64,000 nucleotides of DNA from an uncultured Terriglobales bacterium (GTDB lineage Bacteria; Acidobacteriota; Terriglobia; Terriglobales; Acidobacteriaceae). Made by a program: the position numbers and the translations under genes. The notes under the pieces are model-generated. The model was not told the origin of the DNA. It saw only the letters and a program-made list of their open reading frames with translations, and did not search any database. Positions 22,016 through 58,494 of the stretch are shown piece by piece. The stretch is from contig CAZLJE010000013.1 in NCBI GenBank assembly GCA_964559835.1, positions 54,209 through 118,208 of the forward strand, given 5' to 3'. Position 1 is the first letter of the stretch; every line of letters starts with the position of its first letter.

Positions 22016-22306
22016 TTATTCAGGTATGACTTCGATCGCGTTGATGGACGGATAATTCACGACGGGCGTGAAGTAGATCTCGATCTTCCCCTGGGCGGTT
22101 GGCTGAATGTGGGGAAATGACCGGACGATCGGTGCAGAGTTGGCCTCGGCGAGGATATCGAAATTCTTCAGGATCACTGATCCATTACAAGAAACATCGA
22201 ACACGCGGCTGCCGACGCCATTGATGTTGCCGTTCTGAGATCCGAACCAATGTTCGCGGAAGTGCAGTTTCAGTGTGTATGTGTGTTGCGGCGCGACAGG
22301 GATCAC
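22016..22306 (-). pseudogene. C-terminal malectin-domain fragment of a larger protein
   Basis: GSRVFDVSCNGSVILKNFDILAEA..GKIEIYF..PSINAIEVIPE is the end of a malectin-like carbohydrate-binding domain. No upstream part exists in this frame. Confidence 0.6.
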
Positions 22307-23243
22307 ATAATGAAAATGGCCAATACTTGGCCTGTTTGTAAGTGAGTTGAGAGAAGGAGAATATTGCGTGGCCGCAGTTGGTCGAAGCCCACTGCAGGCG
22401 GAAGAGACGGGCTAGTTCGGGGTGGAGTTTCGCGCGGAAGATGCGGCGGGCATAGGCGGCGTAAGCGGCCTGGAGTTCGCGGACCGTCTTCTTGCCGACG
22501 CGGTTTTTGCCGAAGCTGCCGACCGCCGCGGCTTCGATGCGATCGATGGATACGGCTGTGGCCGGTTCGTCAGAGGTCGCGGCTTCGAGCGCCTTGAGTT
22601 CGCACTCGGTGATGATGGGGATGCCCCGGCGTTTGAGTTCTTCCTCAAGGCTTGGGGGTAGTTTGGCTCCTCCGGTTATGTGGACGTTTCTCATAATGAT
22701 CAGTTCCTCGTTTGAGCGATTTTCGAATTCGCTCTTGGGTTTATCTTCGTTCTTACTTCTTATTTCTTTATTAGGTCGGGGTTCACTCGGGGCAGCGCCG
22801 GGGTTCAGTCGGGGGACAGTCGCGTTAGCAGTCACGCGCTCGTATTCAGGCCTGCAAGCGGCCCCGTGTTTCCATGCGTTTAGCCGGTAACCGAACCACC
22901 TGCCCACAGTCGGCTCGTACTTATGAATAAGCATTTGATAGCCGCCTCTTGCACCAACGCCTCGTGGATAGTTGATGTAGCGCTTCTTTTTGAGGGAGGC
23001 GAGGACGGCTTGGACGTGTCTTTCGTCGCGGGGGTAGCCGATCTGGTGAGCGATTCCGAGCGCGGTACCCTTGTAAATGCCGGTTTCGAAGTTGGCGCGC
23101 ATGTGGAGCGACATGTAGACGAGGAATTGAAAGGCATTAAGCTTCCCGGTCTCCAGGTGCTCCGCTAGTCCGCGACGAATTTGGACAAAGCCTTCCATGC
23201 GCGCCGTCGCCACAACAGGTTGTGGAGCAGTGCAGGTGCGCAC
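22185..23243 (-). CDS. Hypothetical winged-helix protein, phage/plasmid-like (probably 3'-disrupted)
   Basis: MEGFVQIRRGLAEHLETGKLNAFQFLVYMSL..GIAHQIGYPRDERHVQAVLASLKKKRYINYP resembles wHTH replication/regulatory proteins of mobile elements. Low-complexity K/E/N linker. The C-terminus reads through into the malectin fragment. Likely start 23198. Confidence 0.45.
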   Translation of the reverse strand: MRTCTAPQPVVATARMEGFVQIRRGLAEHLETGKLNAFQFLVYMSLHMRANFETGIYKGTALGIAHQIGYPRDERHVQAVLASLKKKRYINYPRGVGARGGYQMLIHKYEPTVGRWFGYRLNAWKHGAACRPEYERVTANATVPRLNPGAAPSEPRPNKEIRSKNEDKPKSEFENRSNEELIIMRNVHITGGAKLPPSLEEELKRRGIPIITECELKALEAATSDEPATAVSIDRIEAAAVGSFGKNRVGKKTVRELQAAYAAYARRIFRAKLHPELARLFRLQWASTNCGHAIFSFSQLTYKQAKYWPFSLCDPCRAATHIHTETALPRTLVRISERQHQWRRQPRVRCFL

Positions 23244-28152: not shown

Positions 28153-28208
28153 GAGGCGCAGGGCTCAGGGCGTAGGAAGCCCTAAGCCTTGTGCCCTACG
28201 CCCTAAGC
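28153..28208. repeat. Inverted array of degenerate heptads (AGGnnnC x4 / CCTnnGC x4)
   Basis: gaggcgc agggctc agggcgt aggaagc | cctaagc cttgtgc cctacgc cctaagc. AGGGCGTAGG (28167-28176) pairs with CCTACGCCCT (28195-28204). Confidence 0.65.
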
Positions 28209-28330
28209 CCCGACGGATAAAACTCTCACGGGGCGGCTGTACAAGTCGTTTATCATGCAGCGGTGGGCCCCTCTGTCAGCCGCAAGTTCATGATCTTTGT
28301 ACCGATTCCTTTCGCGATGCGAGCGACACG

Positions 28331-29527
28331 GTGAAGATTCGCATCGCCGTCATTCACCTCGGATTTGCTCTTACCGGCGTGGTGACCACGCTCCTGGGTC
28401 CCATCCTTCCTCTTCTCTCCTCGCAATGGAACCTGAACGATGCGCAAGCGGGAAGCCTGTTCACGGCGCAGTTCGTATCGGCGGTCGCCGGATCCTTCGT
28501 GGCCAGCCGAGTGCTTGCTCGTTGGGGGACCGGCTGGACGGTGGCAATTGGAATGTTTTCAATCGCCGCCGGAGTTTCCGCGTTAGGGCTCGGCAATCCA
28601 TCGCTCGGTGTCGCCGGGATCTGTCTGTTTGGCGTCGGCTTGGGATTCGCACTTCCGGCCACAAACCTGCTCATTGTCGAGTTAATGCCCGAGCAAAGGG
28701 TCGCCGCCCTCAACATCCTGAACTTTTCCTGGACGGTCGGCGCGTGGAGCGGACCTCTCATGATCGCTTCCGCCCAGGCGTCGATCGGTTTGCGAAAGTT
28801 CTCTTTCGTGCTCGCTGCCGCCTTTGTCGTCATTTCCATCTTCGAATTCGCGGTGCTACCCAACGCCAAGGGAACCATGATAGGGACGAGGGGCGCGGGA
28901 CGAGGGGCGCGGCAAACCAACCCCCCCACGCCGACCCAGGCCGGAAACCTTCCGGCAGAGAAGCGGCTTGTTTTCGCGGTGCTCACGTGCCTGTTCCTCA
29001 TGCTTTATGTCGGTGTCGAGAATGGTTTCTCGGGGTGGTTATCGGTCCTGACTGGCCGGATCCATCAGGGTTCCCCCCACACGATGGCTTTTGTGCAATC
29101 AAGTTTTTGGGGCGCCCTGCTCGTCGGCCGCCTGCTCGCGCCTGCCGTCGTTCGCTTGCTGCAGCCGGGTAAATTGATGATTGCAGGACTCGCGGGCGCT
29201 GCAGCCGGCGTCGCCGGTACCATTGTTTCGAGCGGAGTGGTCACGCTGGAAATGGCAGTCCTGCTCTGCGGACTGGGTATGGCCCCTCTGTTTCCGACGG
29301 CGGTGGCGATCTTCACGGAGGGGTACGGAACGGGCGCGGGAGGGAGCATAGTCCTCGGGCTCTGCGGAATCGGCGGTGCTACGATTCCATCGCTCGTGGG
29401 GCTTGTCGCCGCGTATTCGAACAGCCTGAGGACCGGCTTCATGGTGACGTTGTGCTGCGTAATGTTCGCGCTACTTACATTCGGGCGGCTGCAGGACCTG
29501 GCGCGCTCAGAATCACGATCTGCATGA
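28331..29527 (+). CDS. MFS transporter (sugar importer candidate)
   Basis: 12-TM pattern in two 6-TM halves with a central hydrophilic loop; located in a glycan locus. Confidence 0.8.
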   Translation: MKIRIAVIHLGFALTGVVTTLLGPILPLLSSQWNLNDAQAGSLFTAQFVSAVAGSFVASRVLARWGTGWTVAIGMFSIAAGVSALGLGNPSLGVAGICLFGVGLGFALPATNLLIVELMPEQRVAALNILNFSWTVGAWSGPLMIASAQASIGLRKFSFVLAAAFVVISIFEFAVLPNAKGTMIGTRGAGRGARQTNPPTPTQAGNLPAEKRLVFAVLTCLFLMLYVGVENGFSGWLSVLTGRIHQGSPHTMAFVQSSFWGALLVGRLLAPAVVRLLQPGKLMIAGLAGAAAGVAGTIVSSGVVTLEMAVLLCGLGMAPLFPTAVAIFTEGYGTGAGGSIVLGLCGIGGATIPSLVGLVAAYSNSLRTGFMVTLCCVMFALLTFGRLQDLARSESRSA

Positions 29528-55344: not shown

Positions 55345-55752
55345 ATGAATTTCTTATCCGCCCGCGAGGATTTGTGCTATCGCACCCTGGGAGTGTTCGA
55401 AGGGGCGTTGGAGAAAGTCGCCTATCTCGCCAGCCTTCGCAATGAACCCGGCGCGTACTGTCACTGGGGCATGAACAAGACTTTCGGTGAGACTCAAGCG
55501 GCGGCCGCGATGGCCGAAGTGCACACCCAGGTTTGGATCGAGGTGTTGCGCACACCTATTCCCGATCTATTGCGCCAGATGAGCCGGATGGAACCGACTA
55601 CTCGGAGGAAGGTGATCGAGGAAGTCAGGAACTATCGAGCTTTGTCCTGTCCCTCGGACCGTTCCGGCGGCGGGATACAGCACTTCAATTCAATTCTTTT
55701 GGCGTTGGAGAGCCTTTGCCGGTCAATGGACGCCACTCGCCCAGCCGCATAG
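55345..55752 (+). CDS. Hypothetical protein
   Basis: Coherent protein-like composition from MNFLSAREDLCYRTLGVFEG. No family recognised. Confidence 0.45.
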   Translation: MNFLSAREDLCYRTLGVFEGALEKVAYLASLRNEPGAYCHWGMNKTFGETQAAAAMAEVHTQVWIEVLRTPIPDLLRQMSRMEPTTRRKVIEEVRNYRALSCPSDRSGGGIQHFNSILLALESLCRSMDATRPAA

Positions 55753-56500
55753 CCAGACCCACTACTTGTCCGATCACTTCCGCCTCGCGCGAATATTTCA
55801 GGATGCGCGGAGCTACCGGCGACAAAGGATGCGGTTGCAGAACCAGCTGGTCGTCCTTCAAGGAACACCAGGAGCAGATGTGTCCCTCCCGCGTCTCGAC
55901 AAAGTAGATGGGCCGTTCGTACTCCGATCGCCACGCTTTTTCGATGATCTTGTTCCTGTGCTCGTCTACCTGGATGAAAGACCCGGGTACGATCAACGGG
56001 TACATCGTGAAGTCTTCCGTGCCGATGTATCCATACGTGAATTCCGAGTCTGCCATCCGTTCTAGAAAGGCGAACGGGAGCGCGCCCCATTTCTCGATCA
56101 AACGGCCCAGGTCCGAAGTCTTCGCCAGCTTGAACGCGGGGTCCATCTTTACCGGCATCTCGACCGCCCGCAGCGCCAGCTTCGCCGGAACGATGCGCGT
56201 TTTCGGCCGCGGCAGCACGTCGTTTTCGAAGGCGGCATTGTCCGGGTCCACCCCGTAGAGCGCCACCAGTTCGTAAAAGCTCACGCCGTAGATGGCGGCC
56301 ATGGAGTACAGTTTAAAGATGTTCGGAACTATTCCCTTGGTCTCGAAGTCCGACAGCCGGGCCACCGGGATAAAGAAGTCTTCATTGTCGTACTTGGTGG
56401 CCAGGCGCAAACTCGCCGCCTCGACTTCGCGCAGATTGAGGTTGTTCTGCTCGCGCAGAGTGCGCAGTCGGTGGCCGGTGGCAAGCCGTGGCTGTTCCAT
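55685..56500 (-). CDS. XRE-family HTH regulator with C-terminal CI/LexA-like beta domain
   Basis: GHRLRTLREQNNLNLREVEAAS..SDFETKG HTH_3-like N-terminus. C-terminal PLIVPGSFIQVDEH..IYFVETREGHICSW. Confidence 0.65.
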   Translation of the reverse strand: MEQPRLATGHRLRTLREQNNLNLREVEAASLRLATKYDNEDFFIPVARLSDFETKGIVPNIFKLYSMAAIYGVSFYELVALYGVDPDNAAFENDVLPRPKTRIVPAKLALRAVEMPVKMDPAFKLAKTSDLGRLIEKWGALPFAFLERMADSEFTYGYIGTEDFTMYPLIVPGSFIQVDEHRNKIIEKAWRSEYERPIYFVETREGHICSWCSLKDDQLVLQPHPLSPVAPRILKYSREAEVIGQVVGLAMRLGEWRPLTGKGSPTPKELN

Positions 56501-56580: not shown

Positions 56581-56669
56581 GAATGAAGAGGTAAGAACTC
56601 AGGAGGAAGAACGACCCGACTCCACGCTTCGTTTTTCATTCTTCATTCTGACTTCTTCATTCTTCATTT
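56581..56669. repeat. Inverted array of degenerate heptads (GAATGAA-type x5 / TTCATTC-type x5), AT-rich
   Basis: gaatgaa gaggtaa gaactca ggaggaa gaacgac ...spacer... ttcattc ttcattc tgacttc ttcattc ttcattt. The 13-mer TTCATTCTTCATT occurs at 56635 and 56656. Confidence 0.65.
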
Positions 56670-56706: not shown

Positions 56707-56970
56707 ATGGTTGGGCTGTTTCACTTGCGTACTAACTTGCGAACGGAGACTATTGTGACCATCGACAAAATCATTTCGGAGCTACGAGCAGAACGTGACC
56801 GGTTAGACCAGGCAATCTCAGCACTGGAGGGACAGGGCGGCCGAGGGCGAAGAGGTCCGCATGTGGGTGGTCCGCGCCGCCGGCGCCGGATGTCTCCCGA
56901 CGCCCGCCGCCGCATTTCGGAAATGATGAAGAAACGCTGGGCGGAACGGAAACGCAAGAAATCGGCGTAG
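56707..56970 (+). CDS. Small, highly basic hypothetical protein
   Basis: Coiled N-terminus (IISELRAERDRLDQAISALEG), then an Arg/Lys-rich tail. Followed by a clean terminator. Alternative GTG start 56755. Confidence 0.5.
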   Translation: MVGLFHLRTNLRTETIVTIDKIISELRAERDRLDQAISALEGQGGRGRRGPHVGGPRRRRRMSPDARRRISEMMKKRWAERKRKKSA

Positions 56971-57000
56971 ACTTCCCTCCGCTTTGCGAAACAGAACCAG

Positions 57001-57030
57001 GACCCCGGTTGCGCGCGGGGTCTTTCTTCT
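57001..57030 (+). terminator. Rho-independent terminator
   Basis: GACCCCG-N8-CGGGGTC followed by TTTCTTCT. Confidence 0.8.
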
Positions 57031-57077
57031 ACTGGTCGCGAAATGTGCGTGCATCGCATCACTTCGCACCCGATCGT

Positions 57078-57159
57078 AGGTCGTGCGTCGTAGGTCGCAA
57101 GTGCAGCGTCGTTTTTCACGTTTCCGACCTACGACCTACCGCCTACGACTTACGCGCGC
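57078..57159. repeat. Inverted array of degenerate heptads (AGGTCGT-type x5 / ACGACCT-type x5)
   Basis: aggtcgt gcgtcgt aggtcgc aagtgca gcgtcgt - ttttcacgtttc - cgaccta cgaccta ccgccta cgactta cgcgcgc. Perfect 10-bp core 57088-57097 / 57125-57134. Confidence 0.65.
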
Positions 57160-57177: not shown

Positions 57178-58494
57178 ATGAAAAAGCGCCTTCGCACTCC
57201 ATTCATGTCTCTGGTTGTGTTCTTCGCAGTAGCCACAGCCTTCGCACAGCAATCCAATTCCGGCGGTGCCTCTGTCAGCTATGACCAGCAGCAGCCCGGC
57301 CGTACGCACCACATCACGGTGGCCGACCTTCCTGCGCCGTACGCTACGCCTTCCGTCGACAACGGTTCGCGCGTGGTCCCCCGTCCCGCGGATGCTTGGC
57401 CCAAGGCGCCCGCTGGTTTCAAAGTCCAGCTATACGCGGACGGCTTGGTTAATCCCCGCCTCATTCGCACCGCTCCCAACGGTGACGTCTTTCTCGCCGA
57501 GAGCCGCAGCGGCGAGATCAAGGTGTTCCGCGGCATTACGCCCGACGGCAGGGCCCAGCAAACTTCCGTATTCGCGACCGGACTCGATCAGCCGTTCGGC
57601 ATCGCCTTTTATCCGCCCGGCCCGAACCCGCAATGGGTCTACGTCGGAAACACAGGTTCGGTCGTGCGTTTTCCGTACGCGAATGGCGACCTGAAGGCGC
57701 GCGGCGCCGAGCAGCACATTGCCGATCTGCCCGGCGGTGGACGCCTGCGCGGCGGCGGCCATTGGACCCGCGATATCGCATTCTCGCTCGACGGCAAGAA
57801 GATGTTCGTCTCCGTCGGATCGCATTCCAACGTCGACGATACCGACAATAACCCGTCCGAATTCCACCGCGCCGACGTTCTCGAATTCACGCCCGACGGA
57901 AAGAACGAACGCGTCTACGCCTCCGGCATCCGCAATTGCGTCGGCATTGCCGTACATCCGAAGACGGGCGAAGTGTGGTGCTCGGTCAACGAGCGCGACG
58001 AACTTGGCAACAACCTCGTGCCCGACTACATCACCCATGTCAGCGACGGCGGCTTCTACGGCTGGCCCTGGTACTACATCGGCGGCCACCAGGACCCGAG
58101 GCACAAGGGGAAGCACCCCGAGTTGAAAGACAAGGTCATCGTTCCCGACGTCCTGTTGCAGTCGCATTACGCGTCGTTAGAGATGACCTTTTATAACGGC
58201 TCGCAGTTCCCGAAGGAGTACTCGGGGAACATCTTCGCCGCCGAGCACGGATCCTGGAACCGCAGCCCCATCACCGGCTACGAGGTCATTCGCGTCCGGC
58301 TCGATGCCGCGGGCCGCGCCAACGGTGAGTACGAGGACTTTCTCACCGGGTTCGTCACCCCGGACGGAAAGGTCTGGGGACGCCCGGTCGGCGTCACGGT
58401 CGCGAAAGACGGCTCGCTGCTCGTCTCCGACGATGGTTCACGATCGATCTGGAGGGTGAGCTACGCGGGAACTCCGGCGCCGGATAAGCGGTAA
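57178..58494 (+). CDS. PQQ-dependent sugar (glucose/sorbosone) dehydrogenase, beta-propeller
   Basis: Signal peptide. GIRNCVGIAVHPKTGEVWCSVNERDELG..PDYITHV..GGFYGWPWYY. Confidence 0.8.
   Translation: MKKRLRTPFMSLVVFFAVATAFAQQSNSGGASVSYDQQQPGRTHHITVADLPAPYATPSVDNGSRVVPRPADAWPKAPAGFKVQLYADGLVNPRLIRTAPNGDVFLAESRSGEIKVFRGITPDGRAQQTSVFATGLDQPFGIAFYPPGPNPQWVYVGNTGSVVRFPYANGDLKARGAEQHIADLPGGGRLRGGGHWTRDIAFSLDGKKMFVSVGSHSNVDDTDNNPSEFHRADVLEFTPDGKNERVYASGIRNCVGIAVHPKTGEVWCSVNERDELGNNLVPDYITHVSDGGFYGWPWYYIGGHQDPRHKGKHPELKDKVIVPDVLLQSHYASLEMTFYNGSQFPKEYSGNIFAAEHGSWNRSPITGYEVIRVRLDAAGRANGEYEDFLTGFVTPDGKVWGRPVGVTVAKDGSLLVSDDGSRSIWRVSYAGTPAPDKR

What the first reader, a model, noticed from the sequence alone, without database searches (positions are those of the whole stretch)
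57078..57159. Family of intergenic hairpins whose arms are arrays of degenerate heptads (four loci in this window)
At 57078-57159 five heptads of type AGGTCGT are followed by a 12-nt spacer and then five heptads of the complementary type ACGACCT. The same architecture with unrelated unit sequences occurs at 28153-28208 (AGGnnnC x4 directly abutting CCTnnGC x4). It occurs again at 56581-56669 (GAATGAA-type x5, ~18-nt spacer, TTCATTC-type x5). At 63202-63236 a one-armed version is present (CAACTNN x5). All four lie in promoter-proximal intergenic DNA, within ~20-130 nt of a start codon. They are not copies of one REP/MITE sequence. What is shared is the period of 7 and the inverted-array design. 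Heptanucleotide tandem repeats are known from cyanobacteria as STRR elements. I am not aware of a description of inverted heptad arrays of this kind. They could be slippage-prone regulatory hairpins, protein-binding arrays or RNA structures in 5' leaders.
Basis: seen in the sequence. Interest (0 to 1): 0.6.

Follow-up and report, generated by a model that had tools for sequence, protein, structure and literature searches.

The report
Cargo-less heptad-repeat foldback elements
The four hairpins belong to about 490 hairpins and 700 single arms built from 7-base repeats in this soil-bacterium genome, and the same arms bracket every copy of a small four-helix-bundle gene of the "23S rRNA intervening-sequence protein" family, which ties the long-unexplained 7-base repeats of bacteria to a selfish gene cassette.

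Summary
TRF finds 1,346 period-7 arrays in intergenic DNA against 8-20 in dinucleotide shuffles. They cover 5.6% of intergenic DNA, as about 489 inverted pairs and 695 solo arms.

They are not free-running microsatellites. Each of about 60 families has a defined arm of roughly 4-5 heptads, with shared "landmark" variant units, a fixed polarity (the GT-rich arm is 5' on both strands) and a locus-specific loop.

All 12 PF05635 (four-helix-bundle / 23S rRNA IVS protein, Avd-like) genes in the genome sit between such inverted heptad arms, each with its own family. 42% of the cargo-less hairpins share arms with one of these 12 cassettes.

For three of the four window loci I found a cassette with matching arms: one in this genome and two in same-genus genomes. 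Proteins and heptad families are inherited together. The bracketing recurs across phyla (53 of 77 loci against 0 of 77 controls).

The outer end of an arm usually lies 2-4 nt after a stop codon. I found no target-site duplication, no G·U bias, few T-runs, and no link to the genome's REP/RAYT systems.

Best reading: these are non-autonomous foldback relatives of IVS-like PF05635 cassettes. Binding of the arms by a pentameric protein is inferred, not shown. I found no published statement of this link.

The parts
57075..57097 (.). 5' (GT-rich) arm of hairpin 1, AGGTCGT/CGTAGGT family
   Evidence: Sequence. TRF 57074-57097, 3.4 copies. Pairs with 57126-57154 in the fold. The family has 48 arrays and 21 or more hairpins genome-wide. 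No PF05635-bearing copy of this family was found in G000, G001 or G002.
57098..57125 (.). Locus-specific loop of hairpin 1
   Evidence: Loops are unique genome-wide: 12 of 324 resemble another loop.
57126..57154 (.). 3' (AC-rich) arm of hairpin 1. It ends about 23 nt before the ATG of the glucose/sorbosone dehydrogenase-like gene (57178-58494).
   Evidence: TRF 57125-57154, 4.3 copies. Fold z = -3.1. Pfam PF07995 for the downstream gene.
56581..56613 (.). 5' arm of hairpin 2, AATGAAG family, strongly degenerate
   Evidence: Fold z = -3.6. Lies between divergent genes (55685-56500 on the minus strand, 56707-56970 on the plus strand).
56634..56668 (.). 3' arm of hairpin 2. It carries the family landmark CTGACTT (reverse complement of AAGTCAG) in the third unit.
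   Evidence: TRF 56627-56668, 6 copies. The same landmark occurs in 76 arms genome-wide and in the arms around a PF05635 gene in same-genus G001:C179 (L088).
28154..28179 (.). 5' arm of hairpin 3, AGGGCNN family
   Evidence: Fold z = -3.4. The same family brackets the PF05635 gene at G000:C21:38297-38620 and one in G001:C510 (L089).
28180..28210 (.). 3' arm of hairpin 3, abutting the 5' arm with no loop. Lies between the divergent GH3 glycosidase and MFS transporter genes.
63202..63236 (-). Solo arm, AAGTTGT/GTTGTAA family. On the minus strand it reads TGA-AAAGCA-GTTACAAGTTGTTAGTTGTCAGTTGCTAGTTG. Its outer end lies 3 nt after the stop codon (63240-63242) of the rubrerythrin/VIT1-like gene.
   Evidence: The family outer consensus AAAA.CA|GTTGTAAG is matched. 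No partner arm (fold z = 0). A CAACTNN array lies 3' of a partial PF05635 match in G002:C70 (L093). It fits the genome-wide rule for solo arms.

Best explanation
The four loci are cargo-less members of a superfamily of foldback elements. Three are hairpins and one is a single arm.

Shown:
- Each arm is about 4-5 degenerate heptads.
- The complete form of the element carries a PF05635 gene in its loop. PF05635 is the four-helix-bundle '23S rRNA intervening-sequence protein' family, homologous to the DGR accessory protein Avd.
- About 60 arm families coexist in this genome. Twelve of them have a gene-bearing copy here and others have one in same-genus genomes.
- Gene lineage and heptad family are inherited together.
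- Arms have a fixed polarity (GT-rich strand 5' on both strands) and a sharp outer end that usually lies 2-4 nt behind a stop codon.
- Loops are locus-specific and there is no target-site duplication.
- Turnover between same-genus species is high.

Inferred:
- The cargo-less copies are non-autonomous relatives. They are generated or kept homogeneous in trans by the cognate PF05635 protein, much as REPINs depend on RAYTs.
- The protein, by analogy with pentameric, RNA-binding Avd, reads the phased heptads of an arm, about one unit per subunit.
- Any effect on neighbouring genes (3'-end stem, RNase III site as in rRNA IVSs, promoter occlusion) is a by-product rather than the reason these elements exist.
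For: - Period-7 excess of about 100-fold over shuffles, and 489 inverted pairs.
- Arms are defined sequences, not local slippage products. Landmark variant units (GATTTAGT, AAGTCAG) sit at the same position in 142-150 and 76-79 dispersed arms, with abrupt outer boundaries.
- Polarity is fixed in 26 of the 30 largest families (for example 33/33, 19/19, 18/18, 17/17). The 5' arm is GT-rich in 419 of 483 hairpins.
- Eleven of the 12 PF05635 genes in the genome show heptad arrays on both flanks and the twelfth on its 3' flank only. Each has a different family.
- 206 of 489 hairpins and 173 of 695 solo arms share at least 50% of their arm 6-mers with one of these 12 cassettes, against 0.4-3.5% in controls.
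- Families that are orphans here have gene-bearing copies in same-genus genomes: AATGAAG in G001:C179 and CAACTNN in G002:C70.
- An insertion was caught. In G002 a PF05635 cassette with ATTTGTA arms sits between two nuo genes, where G000 has an empty TAATG stop/start junction.
- Same heptad family goes with 69-80% protein identity between G000 and G001. A different family goes with 60% or less. The paralogs closest to each other, CATGGCN and CAGGGCN, have heptads one base apart.
- Generality: 27 of 31 genomes of the order carry PF05635, and 18 of 30 loci are TRF-positive for bracketing inverted heptads. 53 of 77 loci from many phyla have a bracketing inverted repeat (0 of 77 in the control), with arm self-match of 0.74 at period 7 against 0.20-0.32 at periods 5, 6, 8 and 9.
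- The Coxiella 23S IVS has a 28-bp terminal stem cut by RNase III and tandem GACAGAT heptamers of variable number (PMC4990558).
- Avd is a pentameric, positively charged barrel that resembles S23 proteins and binds RNA (bioRxiv 10.1101/2023.10.23.563531; PMC10053308). The closest solved structure is 2GSC (XCC0516) of Xanthomonas campestris, the species in which inverted GGGAATC heptamer arrays were described.
Against: - Loops are unrelated to the interiors of the gene-bearing copies and carry no PF05635 remnants. So the cargo-less hairpins are not simple deletion derivatives, and how arms come to flank unique sequence is unexplained.
- 58% of hairpins belong to families with no gene-bearing copy in this (98% complete) assembly.
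- The AGGTCGT family, which includes the finding's own coordinates, has no master in any genome I examined.
- PF05635 gene number tracks heptad density only loosely. There are 12 genes at 32 arrays per 100 kb here, but 4-6 genes at 5-14 arrays per 100 kb in other genera.
- Arm length is 4-8 units, not strictly 5.
- No binding, transcription or mobility data could be obtained.
- Co-inheritance of protein and arms would also arise without any functional recognition.
Confidence: 0.78

Rival explanations
1. Host-selected RNA or DNA stem-loops. On this reading the hairpins exist because they serve as 3'-end stabilisers, terminators or RNase III processing sites for the upstream gene, and the link to PF05635 is secondary.
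For: The outer end lies a median of 4 nt after the upstream stop. The hairpins are enriched between convergent genes (22% against 15% of intergenic length) and depleted between divergent genes. rRNA IVS stems are RNase III substrates. T content just 3' of the hairpin is slightly raised, 0.30 against 0.22.
Against: There is no excess of G·U over A·C mismatches in sense orientation (199 against 203). Only 15% have a TTTT run within 12 nt after the 3' arm. Some loops already contain a canonical terminator. Occupancy of orthologous sites turns over between species at 77% nucleotide identity. Three of the four window loci sit next to start codons. About 60 unrelated sequences would all have to serve one function.
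Confidence: 0.12
2. The direction is reversed. Heptad hairpins are an independent repeat class, and PF05635 genes are passengers that preferentially land in, or survive inside, their loops.
For: Cargo-less hairpins outnumber gene-bearing ones by about 40 to 1. Loops are unique and show no gene remnants. Many families have no gene copy in this genome.
Against: All 12 genes in G000 have flanking heptad arrays (11 on both sides), as do 53 of 77 loci across phyla. Orthologous proteins keep the same heptad family, and the closest paralogs have the closest heptads, which random landing would not give. The G002 insertion brought arms and gene together into a site that has no hairpin in G000.
Confidence: 0.08
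3. Ordinary long simple-sequence repeats made in place by polymerase slippage. Mrázek's 2007 proposal is that 7 nt is the length that interacts with the polymerase. The inverted pairs would then arise by chance or by template switching.
For: Heptamers are the commonest long SSR in many bacteria (cited in PMC4692102 and PMC4679880). A few arrays here are long and pure, up to 21 copies. Inner arm ends are ragged.
Against: Arms have a fixed length and fixed landmark variants shared between distant loci. Polarity is strict per family. 50% of arrays have an inverted partner. The arrays are strictly associated with one gene family.
Confidence: 0.04
4. REP/REPIN elements mobilised by RAYT (Y1 transposase) genes.
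For: The genome has 7 PF01797 matches. The doublet-hairpin design, intergenic location and absence of a target-site duplication all resemble REPINs.
Against: Each Y1 gene is flanked by its own classical GC-rich palindromes (for example GGGTGGCCCACCCTAGC...GCTAGGGTGGG and CCCACAGCTGACGCTGTGGG) and not by heptads. There are about 60 heptad families against 7 Y1 genes.
Confidence: 0.02

Closest known systems
ORF-bearing intervening sequences (IVS) of 23S rRNA (Coxiella burnetii S23p IVS; also Leptospira)
   Same: The same gene family (PF05635) sits in the loop of a long terminal inverted repeat. The Coxiella IVS even has tandem GACAGAT heptamers of variable number at its 5' end, and its stem is cut by RNase III (PMC4990558).
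   Different: The window elements are not in rRNA and carry no gene. They exist as about 60 families and about 1,200 arms in one genome. They sit behind stop codons of protein-coding genes.
Heptameric SSRs / STRR: Calothrix and Nostoc STRR; GGGAATC repeats of Xanthomonas (Rehm 2015, PMC4692102); TAACTGA repeats of Beggiatoaceae (PMC4679880); 'tandem heptamer repeats, no clear clue' (Mori 2018, PMC6344855)
   Same: Period 7, degenerate units and an intergenic position closer to the upstream ORF. They are rare between divergent genes and vary between related species. In Xanthomonas 70-75 convergent inverted pairs have the G-rich strand first, the same polarity as here.
   Different: Those papers treat one unit type per genome and leave origin and function open. 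None links the repeats to PF05635. Here many families coexist, arms have a fixed architecture, and each family tracks a PF05635 lineage.
REPINs and their RAYT transposases
   Same: Non-autonomous hairpin doublets in intergenic DNA form one population per cognate protein lineage, and the protein gene is itself flanked by the repeats. There is no target-site duplication.
   Different: The associated protein is a small four-helix bundle with no known catalytic motif, not a Y1 transposase. Arms are tandem heptads, not single palindromes. Loops are not conserved. The genome's RAYT-like genes have other repeats.
Avd of diversity-generating retroelements
   Same: It is homologous to PF05635, and it is a pentameric basic barrel that binds a structured RNA element.
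   Different: I did not look for a reverse transcriptase or template/variable repeat pair next to these genes. The flanks I read hold only the inverted heptad arms, and the genes stand as single-gene cassettes.

Membership tests
Heptanucleotide tandem repeats (STRR / long SSR of unit 7) | Tandem head-to-tail copies of a 7-nt unit, intergenic, in excess over chance | tested here: met
   TRF in intergenic DNA gives 1,346 arrays against 8-20 in shuffles. 84% of period-7 arrays are intergenic.
Heptanucleotide tandem repeats (STRR / long SSR of unit 7) | Copy number set by local slippage, giving variable-length pure arrays | tested here: not met
   Most arms have a fixed length of about 4-5 units, with landmark variants shared between loci. 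Only a minority are long pure arrays.
PF05635 / IVS-like foldback cassette | Long terminal inverted repeat that can fold as a stem | tested here: met
   Three of the four loci fold with z from -3.1 to -3.6. Genome-wide, 86-88% of arm positions form Watson-Crick pairs.
PF05635 / IVS-like foldback cassette | Arms built of heptads of the same family as those around a PF05635 gene | tested here: met
   28154-28210 matches the G000:C21:38297 cassette. 56581-56668 matches the G001:C179 cassette. 63202-63236 matches the array beside the partial PF05635 gene in G002:C70. This was not met for 57075-57154, because no gene-bearing AGGTCGT copy was found.
PF05635 / IVS-like foldback cassette | PF05635 ORF in the loop | tested here: not met
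   The loops of the window loci are 0-28 nt. Loops genome-wide show no PF05635 remnants. The loci are therefore filed as cargo-less relatives, not as cassettes.
PF05635 / IVS-like foldback cassette | Transcribed, with the stem cut by RNase III (as in rRNA IVS) | not testable with these tools
REP/REPIN-RAYT | The cognate Y1 transposase gene is flanked by the same repeats | tested here: not met
   The seven PF01797 loci are flanked by other palindromes.
Intrinsic (Rho-independent) terminators | GC-rich stem directly followed by a T-run | tested here: not met
   Only 15% have TTTT within 12 nt after the 3' arm. At 57000-57030 a canonical terminator lies upstream of hairpin 1.
MITEs of cut-and-paste transposons | Target-site duplication flanking terminal inverted repeats | tested here: not met
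   Direct-repeat length of the flanks is 0.31 against 0.43±0.10 in shuffles (GATT family) and 0.62 against 0.34±0.12 (AATGAAG family). There is no convincing duplication.

The most novel reading that the evidence does not exclude
PF05635 four-helix-bundle proteins are ring oligomers that read phased heptads, about one 7-nt unit per subunit. Each paralog lineage recognises and propagates, or protects, its own family of foldback arms. Such a protein/repeat partnership would resemble RAYT/REPIN but would use a non-enzymatic reader. It would account for the prokaryote-wide excess of tandem heptamer repeats (STRR, the Xanthomonas GGGAATC repeats and others), for the 23S rRNA intervening sequences, and for the origin of Avd in diversity-generating retroelements.
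Probability: 0.3. Interest if true: 0.85.

Novelty: new variant of a known kind. Interest (0 to 1): 0.68.

Why it matters
[quoted passage not shown] PF05635, the IVS protein family, has had no known role outside DGRs.

This genome shows the two as one system, and at population scale:
- There are 12 gene-bearing cassettes and about 1,200 cargo-less arms in about 60 families.
- The arms cover 5.6% of intergenic DNA.
- Protein lineage and heptad family are inherited together.

This makes an old open question directly testable, for example by binding assays of a paralog against its own and foreign heptads.

It also matters for annotation. These elements abut or overlap stop codons, split operons, and can be mistaken for regulatory sites, terminators or phase-variable repeats.

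Tried and rejected
- Register-specific compensation between arms. An apparent excess of compensated variants largely vanished in a held-out test: 83.4% paired in register against 81.6-82.1% at ±7. The arms are two arrays of one family rather than exact mirror copies.
- RNA-level selection. There is no G·U against A·C asymmetry.
- Cargo-less hairpins as deletion derivatives. Loops against cassette interiors gave 24 blastn-short hits against 19 for shuffled loops. tblastn with 27 PF05635 proteins gave 10 weak hits against 6 in the reversed control.
- Copy-paste of whole hairpins. Only 12 of 324 loops resemble another loop.
- Target-site duplication, or insertion into a pre-existing stem. Flanks are neither direct repeats nor complementary.
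- Heptad arms as general gene-cassette borders. The 82 same-family inverted pairs 120-2,500 nt apart are about what chance adjacency gives, and they show both polarities. The PF05635 cassettes are the exception.
- Stop codons in all three frames as the reason for the polarity. Only 21% of 5' arms have them and 34% have none.
- A universal AG dinucleotide in the unit. It is present in 37 of 60 families against 26 expected, a modest excess.
- REP/RAYT.
- Rfam. The window has no family hit except one tRNA.
Mrázek 2007 is not held in the library.

Full report
**1. Observation**

- 57075-57097 holds AGGTCGT-type units, a 28-nt loop follows, and 57126-57154 holds ACGACCT-type units.
- 56581-56613 (GAATGAA-type, very degenerate) faces 56634-56668 (TTCATTC-type).
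- 28154-28179 (AGGGCNN) directly abuts its complement at 28180-28210.
- 63202-63236 is a single arm of five CAACTNN units.

TRF reports all of them as period-7 arrays. Folded as single strands, the three paired loci are more stable than dinucleotide shuffles (z = -3.1, -3.6 and -3.4). The single arm is not (z = 0). Rfam finds nothing in the window except a tRNA.

**2. Is it more than chance?**

The window is C13:54209-118208 of a 5.2-Mb, 60.7% GC assembly in 88 contigs. An earlier scan note places the genome in Acidobacteriota, and the nearest named relatives are Terriglobales/Acidobacteriaceae records.
- Genome-wide, TRF finds 1,659 period-7 arrays against 217 of period 6 and 328 of period 8.
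- 84% of the period-7 arrays are intergenic. They cover 5.6% of all intergenic bases (using my own rough gene calls).
- In intergenic DNA there are 1,346 period-7 arrays against 8-20 in five dinucleotide-preserving shuffles.
- Periods 8, 9, 10 and 14 are also enriched 7- to 10-fold or more.
- Of 1,602 merged arrays, 799 have a reverse-complementary partner within 150 nt. The score distribution is bimodal. This gives 489 distinct hairpins, and 695 arrays are clear solos.
- The median loop is 25 nt (5th-95th percentile 7-87). The median arm is 30 nt.

**3. Anatomy of the class**

There are 246 canonical unit types and about 60 families with two or more hairpins.

*Polarity.* Within a family the polarity is fixed. 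For the largest families, 33/33, 19/19, 18/18 and 17/17 hairpins have the same strand as the 5' arm. Overall the 5' arm is GT-rich in 419 of 483 hairpins. An inverted repeat reads the same on both strands, so this is a property of the element and not of the neighbouring gene. It matches the "convergent" G-rich-first arrangement reported for the Xanthomonas GGGAATC pairs.

*Arms are defined sequences.* The arms are not free-running microsatellites.
- In the GATT family, 142-150 arms share ATTKGT-GATTTAGY-GATTTGT-GATTKGT-GATTG(AAA), including one 8-nt landmark unit.
- In the AATGAAG family, 76-79 arms share AATGAAG-AATGAAG-AAGTCAG-AATGAAG-AATGAA.
- Information content drops to zero immediately outside the first unit.

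*The two arms are not exact mirror images.* In a held-out test, pairing was 83.4% in register against about 82% when shifted by one unit.

*Loops are locus-specific.* Only 12 of 324 resemble another loop. Some loops contain an ordinary GC-stem-plus-T-run terminator.

*Flanks.* They show no target-site duplication and no extension of the stem.

**4. Position relative to genes**
- Hairpins: 298 lie between co-directional genes, 109 between convergent genes, 55 between divergent genes and 24 inside genes.
- Convergent gaps make up 15% of intergenic length and divergent gaps 29%.
- In co-directional gaps the median distance is 4 nt to the upstream stop and 26 nt to the downstream start. In convergent gaps it is 3-4 nt on both sides.
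- Solo arms obey the same rule. An arm reading as a "5' arm" on the sense strand starts a median of 2-4 nt after the stop codon, even when about 100 nt of free spacer follow.
- In the GTTGTAA family the stop codon often overlaps the A-rich outer end of the arm (TAA-AAGCA-GTTGTAAG).
- The window's solo arm at 63202-63236 is a textbook case. On the minus strand it reads TGA-AAAGCA-GTTACAAG..., 3 nt after the stop of the rubrerythrin/VIT1-like gene.
- The other three window loci lie next to start codons. Two are in divergent gaps and one is 23 nt before the glucose/sorbosone dehydrogenase-like gene.

**5. The link to a gene family**

I compared 200 kb of a same-genus genome (G002, 77% nucleotide identity, 25 period-7 arrays per 100 kb) with this genome. 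Heptad elements come and go at orthologous intergenic sites, and different families often occupy the same site.

One G002-specific insertion of about 440 bp lies between two nuo genes, where G000 has an overlapping TAATG stop/start. It is bracketed by ATTTGTA-type inverted arrays and encodes a 120-aa four-helix-bundle protein.

A search of the whole G000 assembly with Pfam PF05635 (23S_rRNA_IVP) found 12 genes, all above the curated cut-off.
- Eleven show inverted heptad arrays within about 30-100 nt on both sides, and the twelfth on its 3' side only.
- The GT-rich arm is upstream and the AC-rich arm downstream.
- Each gene has a different family: TTCAGGT, CCATCGA, CGTATTC, GCTNTTA, AGTGATC, GGTTGNA, CATGGCN, AGGGCNN, AGTAATA, GATTTGT, GATTTTT and GGAAATCT.

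206 of 489 hairpins (42%) and 173 of 695 solos (25%) share at least half of their arm 6-mers with one of these 12 cassettes. Controls with the reverse strand or with shuffled units give 0.4-3.5%.

The large "orphan" families are AAGTTGT, AAGAATG, AGGTCGT, ATTGCCG and AATCGGT. Two of them have gene-bearing copies in same-genus genomes:
- G001:C179 carries a PF05635 gene between AATGAAG-AATTAAG-AAGTCAG-AATGAAG-AATGAAA and its complement. This is the family and landmark of window locus 56581-56668.
- G002:C70 has CAACTNN arms, the family of 63202-63236.

The AGGGCNN locus at 28154-28210 matches the cassette at G000:C21:38297. For the AGGTCGT family of 57075-57154 I found no gene-bearing copy.

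**6. Protein and arms travel together**
- Between G000 and G001, cassettes with the same heptad family encode clear orthologues. Identities are AGTAATA 78%, AGTGATC 80%, CGTATTC 69% and AGGGCNN 79%.
- Cassettes with different families never exceed about 60% identity.
- Within G000 the closest paralogs (62%) have heptads one base apart (CATGGCN and CAGGGCN).
- The A/T-rich GATTT-type units go with one divergent protein subgroup.

- PF05635 is present in 27 of 31 genomes of the order, at 1-12 copies.
- TRF finds bracketing inverted heptad arrays at 18 of 30 sampled loci. This undercounts, because the G000:C24 locus that is visibly positive scores negative.
- Other genera of the family have 5-14 period-7 arrays per 100 kb, also partly inverted, against 32 here.
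- I took 77 PF05635 loci from genome contigs. They span Acidobacteriota, Bacteroidota, Chloroflexota, Planctomycetota, Clostridia, Desulfobacterota, Proteobacteria, Verrucomicrobiota, Patescibacteria and one archaeal MAG.
- 53 of these 77 loci have a strong inverted repeat around the ORF, against 0 of 77 when flanks are paired at random.
- The arms match themselves at 0.74 at period 7, against 0.20-0.32 at periods 5, 6, 8 and 9. A few are octads.
- Earlier notes of this scan make the same claim from the gene side. I treated them as leads and reproduced the test independently.

**8. What is known**
[quoted passage not shown] - They were studied as GGGAATC repeats in Xanthomonas and GGGGAYT repeats in Nostoc. 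That work found 70-75 convergent inverted pairs, a position closer to the upstream ORF, rarity between divergent genes, and variability between species (Rehm 2015).
- They were also studied as TAACTGA repeats in Beggiatoaceae.
- The Coxiella 23S rRNA IVS carries a PF05635 ORF, a 28-bp terminal stem cut by RNase III, and tandem GACAGAT heptamers whose number varies between strains.
- PF05635 is homologous to DGR Avd. Avd is a pentameric, basic, RNA-binding barrel "similar to S23 ribosomal proteins".
- The closest solved structure to a G000 protein is 2GSC, XCC0516 of Xanthomonas campestris (E = 1e-25, five chains). This is the species with the inverted GGGAATC arrays.
- Five full-text searches found no paper that connects heptamer repeats with PF05635.

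**9. Mechanism**

*Shown:*
- Arms are family-specific dispersed sequences with fixed polarity.
- The same arms bracket PF05635 genes, and gene and arms are co-inherited.
- At least one cassette is absent from the orthologous site in G000, with no visible target-site duplication.
- Arms sit with their outer end against stop codons.
- Turnover between species is fast.

*Not seen:*
- RNA-level maintenance of the stem. G·U against A·C mismatches are 199 against 203.
- Terminator T-runs. Only 15% have one.
- Gene remnants in loops.
- A RAYT association. The seven Y1 genes are flanked by other, classical REP palindromes.

*Inferred:* the cargo-less hairpins and solo arms are non-autonomous relatives. 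Their uniformity within a family, next to intergenic DNA that cannot be aligned between same-genus genomes, points to recent spread or to conservation by a family-specific trans factor. The obvious candidate is the cognate PF05635 oligomer reading about 4-5 phased heptads.

How arms come to flank unique sequence remains unexplained. So do the fixed polarity and the preference for the first bases after a stop codon. A model in which GT-rich heptads are added 5'→3' toward a break from both sides would fit the polarity, but I have no evidence for it.

**10. Verdict**

The loci are best filed as cargo-less members of heptad-armed, IVS-like PF05635 cassettes. This is a new variant of known kinds (STRR-type heptamer repeats and rRNA intervening sequences). 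Confidence in this relationship is about 0.78. Confidence in the protein-reads-heptads mechanism is about 0.3.

Noticed in passing
G000 contigs C18:29936-30436, C7:24781-25218, C59:12341-12781, C5:101950-102498, C36:33360-33908, C29:412-708, C8:64656-65126 (outside the window): Seven Y1-transposase (PF01797, RAYT/IS200-like) genes. Each is flanked by its own classical REP-type palindrome family, for example GGGTGGCCCACCCTAGC..GCTAGGGTGGG, CCCACAGCTGACGCTGTGGG and GCCCGGCACGTGAGTGCCGGG. Copies of the first palindrome also occur inside or next to heptad hairpin loops. The genome therefore hosts two unrelated hairpin-repeat systems side by side.
   Followed up: partly
window 22743-22772: A further solo arm of the AATGAAG family (minus strand: AATAAAGAAATAAGAAGTAAGAACGAAG). 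It lies inside a weakly scoring predicted ORF (22185-23213, minus strand). Either the array is in-frame in coding sequence or the ORF is not a real gene.
   Followed up: no
genome-wide; cross-phylum loci L136, L139, L154, L163, L174: Some PF05635 cassettes have 8-nt units instead of 7-nt units (AGCGAGTC, AAAGGTTC, AAGGATTC, TAGGTAAT). Period-8 arrays are also about 12-fold enriched in the intergenic DNA of this genome (201 against about 17 in shuffles). The period is therefore not strictly 7.
   Followed up: partly
window 28883-28912: A perfect 14-nt tandem duplication, GGGACGAGGGGCGC x2.1. Period-14 arrays are about 100-fold enriched in intergenic DNA (320 against 1-6 in shuffles), probably as alternating heptad pairs.
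   Followed up: no
window 55685-56500 (minus strand) and 56707-56970 (plus strand): The 271-aa protein that an earlier scan note called an XRE regulator, and the 87-aa basic protein next to hairpin 2, have no Pfam match at E <= 0.001. Their functions are open. A canonical terminator (57000-57030) follows the small gene.
   Followed up: partly
orthologous intergenic sites G000 vs G002 (e.g. C14:41858 / L038:3033; C3:208172 / L039:4168; C40:7468 / L037:5970): In two same-genus species the same intergenic site is often occupied by heptad elements of different families. This suggests recurrent targeting of particular gene junctions, or in-place replacement of one family by another.
   Followed up: partly
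G002 loci L033, L037, L039, L041, L042: Runs of about 100 N interrupt several G002 contigs. They produce false period-7 signals at their edges and had to be ignored in the synteny comparison.
   Followed up: yes
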